Assembly (NCBI GenBank): GCA_023898525.1
Contig: CP060227.1
Location: 957,932 to 1,021,931 of the forward strand
DNA from: Candidatus Nomurabacteria bacterium
Lineage (GTDB): Bacteria; Patescibacteriota; Minisyncoccia; Phycocordibacterales; UBA918
Length of the DNA stretch: 64,000 nt
Reading direction: 5' to 3'
Made by a program: the position numbers and the translations under genes
Part shown: positions 2,063 through 2,406 of the stretch, in pieces
Position numbering within the stretch: position 1 is the stretch's first letter
Layout of the letters: every line of letters starts with the position of its first letter
Notes under the pieces: model-generated
Told to the model about the DNA's origin: nothing
Databases searched by the model: none
What the model saw: the letters and a program-made list of their open reading frames with translations, nothing else

Positions 2063-2129
2063 TTATTAAGAATTGTTTAAGCCCCCACAGATTGCTTATT
2101 GTCCCTGTGCTTTATAAAAAACGAACACC

Positions 2130-2148
2130 GTGCGCGGGAGAGGACTTG
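2130..2148 (-). other. Partial copy (19 nt) of the tRNA-Leu(TAG) 3' end/T-arm, abutting a GGTCAC element
   Basis: gtgcgcgggagaggacttg is identical to the 3' end of the intact tRNA at 2325-2343. A second fragment of the same tRNA (ccacagattgct) lies at 2087-2098. Confidence 0.7.
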
Positions 2149-2320
2149 GTCACCTCGCTAAGTATTTTTGTTCGCCTTAATCGGCTCCAAAAAGTACTAA
2201 GCTCCTCGACCCCAGCTATTTTAATTCTCCAAGTATTCGAATTAAAATTACGCTTTTCAAGTCCTCAGTATCCTTGCAACAAGTATAATAAAAACCAGCA
2301 ATAAGCTGGTTCCTATTATA
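2149..2320. repeat. GGTCAC-family element copy F (divergent, ~170 nt) with two hairpins
   Basis: Starts GTCACCTCGC directly after the tRNA T-loop fragment. Hairpin 2218-2248 has stem ATTTTAATT/AATTAAAAT and loop CTCCAAGTATTCG, identical to the loop at 4019-4031. Confidence 0.6.
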
Positions 2321-2324
2321 CTAG

Positions 2325-2406
2325 TGCGCGGGAGAGGACTTGAACCTCCACAGATTGCTCTATTAGTTCCTAAGACTAACGCGTCTACCAATTTCGCCAC
2401 CCGCGC
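2325..2406 (-). tRNA. tRNA-Leu(TAG), type II with long variable arm
   Basis: Manual fold: acceptor GCGCGGG/CCCGCGC, anticodon loop CTTAGGA, T-arm AGAGG-TTCAAGT-CCTCT. No encoded CCA. Confidence 0.85.

What the first reader, a model, noticed from the sequence alone, without database searches (positions are those of the whole stretch)
2085..2406. tRNA-Leu(TAG) locus holds an intact gene plus two partial tRNA fragments and a 170-nt GGTCAC-family element with the same loop as the Leu(TAA) insert
The 19-nt 3'-end copy (2130-2148) abuts GTCACCTCGC, and a variable-arm fragment (ccacagattgct) lies at 2087-2098. The element has the hairpin loop CTCCAAGTATTCG, identical to the loop at 4019-4031, with a different stem. 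This shows the family spreads between non-identical tRNA-Leu isoacceptors.
Basis: seen in the sequence. Interest (0 to 1): 0.6.

Follow-up and report, generated by a model that had tools for sequence, protein, structure and literature searches.

The report
Small structured elements behind tRNA genes
The tRNA-Leu(TAG) locus carries stacked copies of small, protein-less, hairpin-rich DNA modules that sit just behind tRNA and tmRNA genes across the Patescibacteria. Each is bracketed by a direct and an inverted copy of the tRNA's own 3' end. I found no published description of this family, and how it spreads is not known.

Summary
Behind the intact tRNA-Leu(TAG) (2324-2406, minus strand) lie three partial tRNA copies, not two: 2130-2148, 2077-2096 and 1966-1985. 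There is also a ~120-nt GGTCAC element (2148-2266) and a second element, "F" (1986-2076).

The GGTCAC element belongs to a large family ("E"). The window holds six copies, and I counted 122 in 98 Patescibacteria loci. Where a neighbouring gene was identified, each copy lies 40-80 nt downstream of a tRNA or tmRNA gene, on the same strand.

The general layout is: tRNA, terminator, inverted copy of the tRNA 3' part, structured body, direct repeat of the 3' part starting in the T-loop.

The body has covarying hairpins, and the tRNA-sense strand folds better in 74 of 74 copies. Relatives with an identical tRNA-Leu(TAG) are empty or carry different bodies. The same body (~96% identical) sits at tRNA-Leu(TAA) in two relatives, with locally matching arms.

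No recombinase, reverse transcriptase or transposase lies nearby. There are no Rfam, phage or plasmid matches.

The best reading is a non-autonomous, modular mobile element that exchanges at T-loop-derived junctions. The mechanism is inferred, not shown.

The parts
2324..2406 (-). Intact tRNA-Leu(TAG) gene
   Evidence: ARAGORN; Rfam RF00005 58.3 bits. The sequence is identical in L106, L119 and L123-L128.
2425..2452 (-). Promoter-like site of the tRNA (TAGACA-16-TATACT, with TG)
   Evidence: Consensus scan, 10 of 12 matches. Inferred only.
2267..2323 (-). Trailer and terminator hairpin T2 now adjacent to the intact tRNA (stem 2293-2299 / 2305-2311, then a T-run on the minus strand)
   Evidence: Sequence; inverted repeat I7. 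Unrelated to the ancestral terminator T1.
2256..2266 (-). Inverted copy ('anti-arm') of the tRNA T-loop and T-stem 3' strand. It reads TTCAAGTCCTC on the + strand, GAGGACTTGAA on the tRNA strand.
   Evidence: It pairs with 2141-2148 to close the element.
2149..2255 (-). Body of the GGTCAC element (subtype E1). The P1'/P2' hairpin is at 2148-2211. The P3' hairpin is at 2217-2250, with the loop CTCCAAGTATTCG at 2227-2239.
   Evidence: R1 hit 2126-2279(-), 51.8 bits, E = 1e-10. Folds as a three-way junction, z = -3.85. ~96% identical to the bodies in L119 and L106.
2130..2148 (-). Direct repeat of the tRNA 3' part (from the T-loop to one base past the discriminator), 19 of 19 identical
   Evidence: (D3).
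2097..2129 (.). 33-nt spacer of unknown origin between the second 3' copy and the older pseudo-tRNA piece
   Evidence: Sequence only.
2077..2096 (-). Remnant of an older tRNA-Leu(TAG) copy: variable arm 3' side, T-stem 5' strand and start of the T-loop
   Evidence: D7, 85% to 2340-2359; exact 12-mer at 2085-2096.
1986..2076 (-). F1, an element of the second family, lying as a simple insertion in the T-loop of the older tRNA copy. Hairpin 2004-2045 with loop CTTGCAAGTATTCAG.
   Evidence: D4, 81% to 3976-4050. Partial R1 hit 2009-2046. tRNA sequence continues on both sides. The exact right-hand boundary is uncertain by about 5 nt.
1966..1985 (-). Oldest copy of the tRNA 3' part (T-loop to 3' end; 18 of 20 match)
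   Evidence: D3.
1923..1965 (-). Ancestral trailer and intrinsic terminator T1 of tRNA-Leu(TAG)
   Evidence: Terminator scan, stem 1951->1933 plus T-run. 38 of 41 nt identical to the terminator that directly follows the intact tRNA in L106.
3764..3919 (-). E copy (subtype C) in the tRNA-Leu(TAA) locus with its arms. Left 3' fragment at 3768-3786.
   Evidence: R1 99.1 bits.
3986..4062 (-). F2 element in the tRNA-Leu(TAA) locus (hairpin loop CTCCAAGTATTCG at 4019-4031), preceded by the 3' fragment at 3964-3985
   Evidence: (D4, D12).
4329..4484 (-). E copy (subtype C) behind tRNA-Cys. The body is 96% identical to 3778-3904. A 39-nt-arm palindrome with the tRNA 3' part lies at 4461-4539.
   Evidence: R1 103.2 bits; D1 and I1. 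Orthologous copies in L015, L019, L106 and L119.
15577..15732 (-). E copy (subtype A) behind tRNA-Tyr, with a 21-nt inverted copy of the tRNA 3' part at 15707-15727
   Evidence: R1 110.2 bits.
18358..18499 (-). E copy behind tRNA-Trp, with a 19-nt direct repeat at 18362-18380
   Evidence: R1 89.5 bits.
18148..18296 (-). Second, E1-like copy further downstream of tRNA-Trp (tandem arrangement)
   Evidence: R1 28.6 bits, E = 6.6e-5.

Best explanation
The locus is a stack of at least three successive events at the 3' side of one tRNA gene. The events involve two families of small, non-coding, structured modules that specialise on tRNA and tmRNA genes in Patescibacteria.

Anatomy (shown). Read on the tRNA strand, each unit is:
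- the tRNA;
- a trailer and terminator hairpin;
- an 'anti-arm', a true reverse complement of the tRNA from the T-loop towards the 3' end;
- a body of about 100-130 nt made of two hairpin domains, ending in the invariant GUGACC;
- a direct repeat of the tRNA 3' part that starts at T-loop position 57.

The anti-arm pairs with the direct repeat, so the unit closes into a three-way junction. It also forms a long palindrome with the real tRNA 3' end across the terminator. The tRNA gene stays intact.

History of this locus (inferred from the layout). Older 3' ends and the ancestral terminator are pushed downstream. This gives the order: intact gene, E1 unit, 3' copy 2, spacer, pseudo-tRNA piece split by F1, 3' copy 1, ancestral terminator T1.

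Mobile part (shown). The part shared between loci is the body. It is found nearly unchanged behind different tRNAs and is swapped at otherwise orthologous sites. The breakpoints fall exactly at the T-loop-derived sequences on both sides (..TYGAA | body | RARTCC..).

Mechanism (inferred).
- The bodies are non-autonomous and carry no gene.
- They spread by recombination or copy-choice (template switching) at the universal T-loop microhomologies.
- The arms are templated from the local tRNA by a fold-back at the terminator hairpin followed by re-copying. This gives a direct-inverted-direct arrangement.
- Whole cassettes (3' part, terminator, anti-arm, body) then move between genomes by homologous or homology-facilitated recombination, with the conserved tRNA gene as anchor.
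- The conserved hairpin with a bulged A, shared by the E and F families, probably marks a site recognised by an unidentified host protein on one strand (single-stranded DNA or RNA).
For: Family and placement:
- 6 copies in the window and 122 in 98 loci with model R1.
- 62 of 62 copies lie antisense to GGTCAC, i.e. on the tRNA strand, 160-190 nt from the tRNA end.
- 47 to 0 for same strand against opposite strand.
- The family also follows tmRNA and an intron-containing tRNA.

Structure:
- 97.4% of cells are paired. The covariation score is 0.319 against 0.120 in shuffles (0 of 500 reach it) and at most 0.08 when the partners are slid.
- The tRNA-sense strand is more stable in 74 of 74 copies, with 75 against 7 G-U pairs.
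- One pair is G-U in 49 of 73 sequences on that strand.

The arms are local copies:
- The anti-arm complements the 3' strand even where the tRNA has G-U pairs, and it includes the antisense T-loop.
- 64 of 172 tRNAs have an inverted copy of their own T-arm 46-78 nt downstream, followed by at least 6 body types.
- Direct-repeat lengths are bimodal, 6-9 or 18-21 nt.

Gain, loss and mobility:
- With the identical tRNA-Leu(TAG), L119, L124 and L127 are empty, while L106, L123 and L125/L128 carry other bodies.
- L125 shows direct-inverted-direct copies with a 32-nt repeat that ends at the hairpin apex.
- The E1 body is ~96% identical at Leu(TAG) in the window and at Leu(TAA) in L119 and L106, with unrelated flanks.
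- A body swap at an orthologous Leu(TAA) flank has its breakpoint at TTGAA.
- There are nested F-in-E insertions and tandem arrays.
- The ancestral terminator T1 sits on the most distal fragment.

No element-borne or nearby enzyme: ORF clustering of all loci; Pfam on neighbouring ORFs.

Absent from IMG/VR, PLSDB and INPHARED. Nothing in Rfam.
Against: - No transposition or recombination intermediate, and no enzyme, has been seen. The mechanism is inferred from end-products only.
- Sequence conservation of the body across very deep Patescibacteria lineages (28 invariant columns) fits a host function as well as a selfish element. So do compensatory changes in orthologous tRNA-Cys copies.
- In L119 and L015 the next tRNA starts 15-22 nt after the element, so there the element is very probably transcribed as part of a tRNA operon. 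That favours an RNA-level role.
- The 96% identity between the two bodies in the window (3778-3904 and 4343-4469) could be gene conversion rather than movement.
- The template-switch model does not explain why many direct repeats stop exactly at the tRNA 3' end while a 40-60-nt terminator lies between the tRNA and the anti-arm.
- The strand asymmetry cannot tell RNA from single-stranded DNA.
- The loci were chosen by a pattern taken from the element, so frequencies are biased upward.
Confidence: 0.5

Rival explanations
1. A host-functional structured RNA. The unit is transcribed with the tRNA, by read-through or as an operon spacer. The anti-arm and direct repeat form a tRNA-like acceptor/T-stem minihelix, or a long duplex with the tRNA 3' end. 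This lets the tRNA-processing machinery (RNase P, RNase Z, RNase III, the CCA-adding enzyme) release or mature the RNA. The body then acts as a non-coding RNA, or as a processing or termination module for the tRNA.
For: - The functional strand is the tRNA strand, in 74 of 74 copies.
- The internal loops are purine-rich with tandem G-A, and the hairpins covary.
- Orthologous copies behind tRNA-Cys persist in at least 7 related genomes. Their stems show compensatory changes, and the palindrome with the tRNA end is maintained although the trailer sequence differs in each.
- tRNA-Leu(TAA) begins 15-32 nt after the element in four genomes, which implies co-transcription.
- No mobility gene was found.
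Against: - Only about a third of tRNAs carry it, and the same tRNA is empty in close relatives, so it is dispensable.
- There are many unrelated body types at the same position.
- Nested, tandem and truncated copies exist.
- Bodies are swapped between loci.
- Most copies lie behind a good intrinsic terminator and have no promoter of their own.
- About half the copies lack the acceptor part of the direct repeat, so they cannot form a minihelix.
Confidence: 0.22
2. Scars of classical integrase-mediated integrative elements (phages, plasmids, islands) that target the T-loop of tRNA and tmRNA genes. The fragments would be attL/attR duplications, and the ~170-nt pieces the remaining attP arms after deletion of the rest of the element, or miniature cis-mobilisable att cassettes moved by an integrase encoded elsewhere.
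For: - Direct repeats of the tRNA 3' part begin in the T-loop. The tRNA is restored, tmRNA is also used, and successive units pile up with the oldest end most distal. From my own knowledge, not checked in the literature here: these are the hallmarks of tRNA-targeted integration, with the T-loop as a known crossover sublocation (Williams 2002, Nucleic Acids Res).
- Terminators travel with the cassettes. A T_a-like terminator lies beside the F cassette both in the window and in L125.
Against: - No integrase was found in any of about 95 loci or near the window copies.
- The element is absent from viral and plasmid collections.
- The same precise ~115-130-nt body recurs more than 120 times, which random deletion remnants would not do.
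- Strand-specific G-U pairing and covarying stems are not expected of double-stranded protein-binding arms.
- An inverted copy of the target is not produced by integrase recombination.
- The body moves without its arms.
Confidence: 0.12
3. A guide-carrying element. The anti-arm (10-21 nt complementary to the tRNA 3' part), placed 5' of a conserved scaffold, would be a programmable guide for an RNA- or DNA-guided recombinase or nuclease encoded elsewhere. This would be analogous to bridge RNA, to the omega-RNA of IscB, or to intron EBS-IBS pairing, and would direct homing to tRNA T-loops.
For: - A variable, target-matching segment lies between conserved parts of the cassette, and it tracks the local tRNA even at isoacceptor-specific positions.
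- The conserved hairpin with a bulged A is shared by the E and F families, as expected of a protein-binding scaffold.
- The insertion point in the T-loop is precise.
Against: - There is no associated protein gene.
- The guide length is highly variable, and many guides have decayed relative to the adjacent tRNA.
- The target stays intact next to the element, so a nuclease guided this way would be self-targeting.
- There is no own promoter.
- There is no Rfam match to HEARO or to group I or II intron models in this region.
Confidence: 0.08

Closest known systems
tRNA/tmRNA-targeted integrative elements (tyrosine-integrase islands, prophages and their cis-mobilisable miniature derivatives)
   Same: They sit at the 3' side of tRNA and tmRNA genes. 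The junction is in the T-loop. The tRNA 3' segment is present as a direct repeat, so the gene stays intact. Successive insertions accumulate in tandem.
   Different: These elements are 100-190 nt long with no gene. No integrase was found. They carry an additional inverted copy of the target. Their hairpins covary and are strand-specific. The body moves independently of the att-like arms. They are absent from phage and plasmid collections.
Non-autonomous hairpin elements that act as single strands (REP/BIME elements, palindrome-associated elements derived from IS200/IS605, integron attC sites)
   Same: They are small, non-coding, multi-copy and orientation-specific. They have imperfect hairpins with a conserved bulged base, and one strand folds better than the other.
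   Different: Those elements are not tied to tRNA T-loops and do not duplicate or invert their target. No Y1/HUH transposase or IntI was seen here. The two hairpins of the body are unlike each other.
Introns and retroelements that recognise their flank by base pairing (group I IGS, group II EBS-IBS) and bacterial tRNA introns
   Same: There is an internal segment complementary to the flanking tRNA sequence next to the junction, the association with tRNA genes, and a structured core.
   Different: This element does not interrupt the functional tRNA. It is far too small for a group I or II core. There is no Rfam intron hit at the element, although a genuine group I intron was detected in L008 by the same search. 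There is no reverse transcriptase.
Direct-inverted-direct rearrangements made by replication template switching at hairpins (quasipalindrome correction; DUP-TRP/INV-DUP junctions)
   Same: The tRNA 3' segment is arranged as segment, inverted segment, insert, segment. The apex lies in a hairpin, and the junctions are at microhomologies.
   Different: Those are sporadic mutations. Here the same conserved inserts recur at hundreds of tRNA genes across a phylum.
Retron msr/msd non-coding RNA
   Same: Two hairpin domains are enclosed by a long terminal stem made of inverted repeats.
   Different: There is no adjacent reverse transcriptase, the arms are tRNA-derived and locus-specific, and there are many copies per genome.

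Membership tests
tRNA-targeted integrase-mediated integrative element | Direct repeat of the tRNA 3' segment flanking the inserted DNA, with an intact tRNA at one end | tested here: met
   19 of 19 nt at 2130-2148 against 2324-2342. 21 of 61 family copies repeat the full 3' part.
tRNA-targeted integrase-mediated integrative element | An integrase (tyrosine or serine recombinase) gene within or next to the element | tested here: not met
   The element is 100-190 nt with no ORF. No recombinase cluster appears among 647 ORFs of 95 loci. Pfam on 20 window ORFs found none. The rest of each genome was not searched.
tRNA-targeted integrase-mediated integrative element | The element moves as a unit together with its att-derived tRNA segment | tested here: not met
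   The same body has different arms and terminators at Leu(TAG) and Leu(TAA). A body swap occurred at an orthologous flank.
IS200/IS605-derived miniature elements / REP | Subterminal imperfect hairpins on one active strand | tested here: inconclusive
   A strand-asymmetric hairpin with a bulged A is present. However, only one conserved hairpin lies next to an end, and the left and right hairpins are dissimilar.
IS200/IS605-derived miniature elements / REP | A cognate Y1 HUH transposase (TnpA/RAYT) in the genome, and insertion 3' of a fixed 4-5-nt motif without target duplication | tested here: not met
   No such gene was found in the loci. Insertions come with direct and inverted target copies. 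Whole genomes were not searched.
IS110-family bridge RNA / seekRNA | Encoded in the non-coding end of an element that carries a DEDD/serine recombinase; two internal loops holding target and donor guides | tested here: not met
   There is no adjacent ORF. The single internal loop is invariant rather than variable.
TnpB / IscB omega-RNA (HEARO) | Adjacent tnpB/iscB gene; match to the Rfam HEARO model | tested here: not met
   No ORF is present. No Rfam hit even at E <= 10 over 1800-4700 or at gathering threshold in the window.
Group I / group II intron | Conserved catalytic core; interruption of the host gene, with exons rejoined by splicing | tested here: not met
   There is no Rfam intron hit at any window copy, while the same tool found a true group I intron in L008. 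The intact tRNA is uninterrupted. Only F1 interrupts a tRNA copy, and that copy is truncated.
Retron non-coding RNA | Adjacent reverse transcriptase gene | tested here: not met
   None was found in the loci or near the window copies.
Any curated RNA family (Rfam 15) | Score at or above the gathering threshold | tested here: not met
   Only tRNAs were found in the window. Only sub-threshold noise was found in 1800-4700.
Structured RNA or single-stranded DNA element in general | Base pairs kept through compensatory changes, above shuffled and slid controls | tested here: met
   covariation 0.319 against 0.120 (0 of 500 shuffles reach it). 165 cells changed on both sides, against 51 expected.

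The most novel reading that the evidence does not exclude
The bodies could be a protein-less, self-propagating class of genetic element. In this reading a structured single strand (DNA or RNA) is flanked by the two halves of the universal tRNA T-loop in inverted orientation. It copies itself into the 3' flank of any tRNA or tmRNA gene by template switching at the T-loop. In doing so it rebuilds a replacement 3' end, a terminator and a target-complementary arm from the local gene. The tRNA is never lost, and the tRNA gene then serves as a universal homology arm for spread between genomes by natural transformation.
Probability: 0.2. Interest if true: 0.85.

Novelty: new variant of a known kind. 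Interest (0 to 1): 0.68.

Why it matters
Patescibacteria are a large share of bacterial diversity. They have tiny genomes and few recognisable mobile elements. Here about a third of the tRNA genes in the sampled loci (a sample biased by how the loci were chosen) carry conserved, structured, gene-less modules built around copies of the tRNA's own 3' end.

If these modules are mobile, they show a way of colonising essential genes without harming them and without encoding any enzyme. They also give markers of gene flow between these uncultured lineages.

If instead they are functional RNAs, they are an undescribed and widespread RNA class linked to tRNA operons.

There is also a practical consequence. 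The elements produce partial tRNA copies, palindromes and spurious ORFs (for example the TTG-extended ORF 1130-2062). These can mislead tRNA annotation, prophage and att-site finders, and the assembly of such genomes.

Tried and rejected
1. Known RNA families. Rfam at gathering threshold over the window, and at E <= 10 over 1800-4700, returned only tRNAs and noise.

2. Phage or plasmid origin. The family pattern gave only 2 hits in IMG/VR, both chance matches inside coding sequence of unrelated contigs. There was nothing in PLSDB or INPHARED.

3. A cis-encoded enzyme. All-against-all clustering of 647 ORFs from 95 loci gave only housekeeping clusters. Pfam on 20 window ORFs gave HIT, SET, an IrrE-like peptidase, T4SS pilins, MiaA, RhuM/Fic and so on, with no recombinase, transposase or reverse transcriptase.

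4. The idea that the functional strand is the GGTCAC (+) strand, for example a guide RNA convergent with the tRNA. Rejected by the strand test.

5. The idea that the anti-arm is the leftover 5' half of a duplicated tRNA with a T-loop insertion. Rejected because it complements the 3' strand at the G-U positions and contains the antisense T-loop.

6. An internal sigma-70 promoter in the conserved AT-rich hairpin. The hexamer spacing does not fit and is not conserved (manual check).

7. A retro-origin of the distal 3' copies from mature CCA-bearing tRNA. Only 4 of about 15 full-length copies have CCA where the gene lacks it, while most keep the gene's own 'CA'. This is suggestive but not significant enough to claim.

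8. A 4-nt target duplication for F1 (TTGA / TTAA). It is not reproduced in the nested F insertion of L045, so I make no claim.

9. Literature. Six full-text searches (five ran, one was rejected for syntax) on Patescibacteria, tRNA, T-loop, mobile elements and RNA motifs found no description of these elements. Subscription journals are not covered.
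Full report
**1. What is in the sequence**

The window has 40% G+C. Its tRNA cluster is syntenic with Candidatus Paceibacterota MAGs. ARAGORN and Rfam find an intact tRNA-Leu(TAG) at 2324-2406 on the minus strand.

- a 19-nt exact copy of the tRNA 3' end at 2130-2148, abutting GTCACC;
- the 13-mer CTCCAAGTATTCG at 2227-2239, identical to 4019-4031, in hairpin loops with different stems.

The core CAAGTATTC occurs 6 times in the window against 0.73 expected.

**2. The GGTCAC element is a member of a large family**

Five further copies lie behind tRNA-Leu(TAA), Cys, Tyr and Trp (two copies behind Trp).

A 17-base pattern from the element matched at least 120 stretches in the GTDB genome collection. 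About 95 of them are true copies, essentially all in Patescibacteria: Paceibacteria including Kaiser-, Campbell-, Nomura- and Vogelbacteria, MAGs labelled Saccharibacteria, and one Shapirobacteria.

I built a covariance model from 73 copies (A2, R1).
- It finds all six window copies on the minus strand. The finding's element, 2126-2279, scores 51.8 bits (E = 1e-10).
- It gives partial hits on the hairpins of the two F elements.
- It finds 122 copies in 98 loci.

**3. Position and orientation**

- In 62 of 62 cases with a tRNA within 600 nt, the tRNA lies on the strand opposite to GGTCAC, with its 3' end typically 160-190 nt from the GGTCAC.
- With an independent nhmmer scan, 47 of 149 tRNAs in family loci have a copy starting less than 150 nt downstream, all on the tRNA strand.
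- At least 14 tRNA identities are used.
- 'Orphan' copies turned out to follow tmRNA (L059, L093, L097), a tRNA with a group I intron that ARAGORN missed (L008), or another element in a tandem stack.

**4. Structure and functional strand**

The 5' domain of the + strand reading (GGTCAC..GACC) folds better as its complement, that is on the tRNA strand, in 74 of 74 copies. Mean energies are -20.4 against -14.8 kcal/mol, with 75 against 7 G-U pairs. The second domain agrees in 54 copies against 18.

On the tRNA strand the internal loop is purine-rich on both sides (GAGCGA / GAGAGU, potential tandem G-A pairs). A bulged A is conserved.

On alignment A2:
- 97.4% of cells are paired;
- the covariation score is 0.319 against 0.120 in shuffles (0 of 500 reach it) and at most 0.08 when partners are slid;
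- one pair is G-U in 49 of 73 sequences, which would be C-A on the other strand.

The window element with its arms folds into a closed three-way junction. As sense RNA the energy is -44.7 kcal/mol (z = -3.85), and the same topology is obtained with DNA parameters.

These data show selection on a single-stranded structure of the tRNA strand. They cannot distinguish RNA from single-stranded DNA.

One subtype has a conserved GCGAAGC mini-hairpin. From my own knowledge, this motif is unusually stable in DNA. That is a lead only.

**5. The arms**

On the tRNA strand each unit reads: tRNA, trailer and terminator, anti-arm, body ending in the invariant GUGACC, then a direct repeat of the tRNA starting at T-loop position 57.

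The anti-arm is a true reverse complement of the tRNA 3' part:
- for tRNA-Tyr it has C and A opposite the G69 and U64 of two wobble pairs;
- it contains the antisense T-loop ATTTGAA.

It is therefore not a relic of a tRNA 5' half.

Where the match looks short, the arm is usually a decayed copy of the same tRNA rather than a copy of another tRNA.

Direct-repeat lengths are bimodal: 6-9 nt, or 18-21 nt reaching the tRNA 3' end. A few run into the trailer.

Behind tRNA-Cys the anti-arm and anti-trailer form a 39-nt-arm palindrome with the tRNA end (I1). This palindrome is kept in orthologous loci of five genomes (the window and four MAGs) although the trailer sequence differs in each. In some, an extra hairpin sits between the acceptor and T-stem parts.

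More generally, 64 of 172 tRNAs in all the loci I held carry an inverted copy of their own T-loop and T-stem 46-78 nt downstream. It always ends in TYGAA and is followed by at least six different body types. The E and F families are thus two of several bodies that share one architecture.

**6. Comparative evidence at this very locus**

Nine other sequences carry a tRNA-Leu(TAG) identical or nearly identical to the window's (L123 and L127 differ at one and two positions).
- L119, L124 and L127 have a plain terminator or a gene directly after the tRNA. These are empty sites.
- L106 has an E-like body between two homologous copies of '3' part plus terminator T1'.
- L123 has an F-type body with the same architecture.
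- L125 and L128 have another body. Their 32-nt direct repeat ends at the apex of a new hairpin and is followed by its own inverted copy, a direct-inverted-direct arrangement.

In the window, the terminator attached to the most distal fragment (stem 1951->1933) matches L106's tRNA-proximal T1 at 38 of 41 positions. So the most distal fragment is the ancestral 3' end of the gene, and later events have pushed it away.

F1 lies within the T-loop of an older tRNA copy whose variable-arm and T-stem sequence continues at 2077-2096.

**7. What moves**

The body at Leu(TAG) in the window is ~96% identical over about 115 nt to bodies behind tRNA-Leu(TAA) in L119 and L106. Terminators and arms are unrelated, and the arms match the local T-stem.

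Conversely, the window's segment 3896-3985 (3' fragment, terminator T_b, linker, anti-arm) is orthologous to the Leu(TAA) flank of L119 and L106 up to ..TTGAA. After that the window has a subtype-C body and the relatives have the E1 body.

So bodies are exchanged with breakpoints exactly at the T-loop-derived sequences.

Other observations:
- Whole cassettes also carry recognisable terminators from locus to locus: T_a-like terminators lie beside F cassettes in the window and in L125.
- F elements are found nested inside E elements at a T-loop-like TCGA.
- L078 has tandem 126-nt units.
- E and F share the hairpin box N3-[A]-GATATTTT..AAAATATC-N3.

**8. What is not there**

- No ORF in the elements.
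- No recombinase, transposase or reverse transcriptase among the 647 neighbouring ORFs, or in the window ORFs tested.
- No Rfam family.
- No true hit in IMG/VR, PLSDB or INPHARED.
- No description in the searchable literature.

**9. Interpretation**

Shown:
- the family exists;
- it has a strict association and co-orientation with tRNA and tmRNA genes;
- it has a conserved single-strand structure;
- the arms are local copies;
- presence or absence differs among relatives with an identical tRNA;
- the body is modular and is exchanged at T-loop junctions.

Inferred:
- the bodies are non-autonomous and spread by recombination or copy-choice at T-loop microhomology;
- the direct-inverted-direct target copies arise by fold-back at the terminator hairpin and re-copying;
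- the cassettes move between genomes with the conserved tRNA gene as homology anchor.

From my own knowledge, Patescibacteria are thought to depend on DNA uptake. That would fit the last point but was not tested.

The main rival is a host-functional RNA. It is supported by deep conservation, by the long-lived orthologous tRNA-Cys copies, and by the next tRNA starting 15-32 nt after the element in four genomes, which implies co-transcription. Against it stand the element's dispensability, the diversity of bodies, and the nested, tandem and truncated copies.

Classical integrase scars and a guide-RNA system are less likely, for the reasons given under the rival explanations.

**10. Verdict**

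The thing itself is an apparently undescribed, phylum-wide family of tRNA-flank modules. I file it as a new variant of tRNA-targeting mobile elements. Membership in every specific known family failed at least one defining test.

The mechanism remains open. Confidence in the descriptive anatomy is high (about 0.85). Confidence in the proposed mode of spread is about 0.5.

Noticed in passing
window 46056-46075, 46141-46212, 46307-46343: tRNA-Gln(CTG) on the + strand is flanked by an exact copy of its first 20 nt 65 nt upstream, and by an exact copy of its last 37 nt (from the anticodon loop) 94 nt downstream. So duplications with small inserts also occur at the 5' side and at the anticodon loop. 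A RhuM/Fic-domain gene follows at 46430-47410.
   Followed up: partly
window 16023-16036 and 15985-16022: A copy of the first 14 nt of tRNA-Tyr lies about 165 nt upstream of the gene, next to a perfect hairpin (gaccagatgaaaagtga..tcacttttcatctggtc). This is another 5'-side partial duplication with a structured insert.
   Followed up: no
window 4266-4295, 18618-18640, 46275-46300: A recurring short hairpin family with the core GTCTCCCAGAC / GTCTGGGAGAC lies next to tRNA genes. It is unrelated to E or F.
   Followed up: no
window 3375-3413 (minus strand), upstream of ORF 2847-3362: Half of the F hairpin sequence (TACAGTGTGTCGATATTTT) occurs in opposite orientation. It overlaps the best promoter-like site of the region (TCGATA-18-TATAAT with TG), in front of an IrrE/ImmA-like metallopeptidase gene (Pfam PF06114, E = 5.8e-22).
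   Followed up: partly
window 15417-15520: An F-like hairpin (loop TCCAAGTATTCA) lies behind a diverged 3'-end-like fragment (tgcgcatgggggaaggattga), further downstream of the E copy of tRNA-Tyr. The Tyr locus is therefore also a stack.
   Followed up: partly
window 1130-2062 (minus strand): The mechanical ORF of 310 aa starts at a TTG inside F1 and runs over the old tRNA fragment. The real gene most likely starts at the ATG near 1870 (246 aa, no Pfam hit). The elements create spurious ORF extensions.
   Followed up: partly
whole window: GC skew is positive along the whole + strand, so seven of the eight tRNA genes (minus strand) would be transcribed head-on to replication.
   Followed up: no
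L031 about 4160-4260 (minus strand): A tRNA-Ile(GAT) gene reads normally up to the anticodon loop. It then jumps into the last 16 nt of an E body (ATCCACGAGAGTGACC) followed by the tRNA 3' part. This is a deletion chimera between a tRNA and its element, and probably a dead tRNA gene.
   Followed up: no
L005, L024, L043, L044 (distal 3' copies): In 4 of about 15 full-length direct repeats the copy reads discriminator plus CCA, where the gene itself has CAA, CCC or CAT. This is a weak hint that some copies derive from mature tRNA (binomial p of about 0.01 under a simple model).
   Followed up: partly
L008 1365-1589 (minus strand): A group I intron (Rfam RF00028, 52.4 bits) sits inside a tRNA that ARAGORN missed, immediately upstream of an E copy.
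   Followed up: no
window 16142-17973: Two adjacent genes have T4SS-pilin domains, one of them also with an SLT lytic transglycosylase domain. They lie between the tRNA-Tyr and tRNA-Trp stacks.
   Followed up: no
L093 against L097 (tmRNA loci, ~88% identical genomes): The elements behind tmRNA share the same unusual P2 loop but have different P3 domains, anti-arms and terminators. This points to recombination breakpoints inside the body (mosaic elements).
   Followed up: partly
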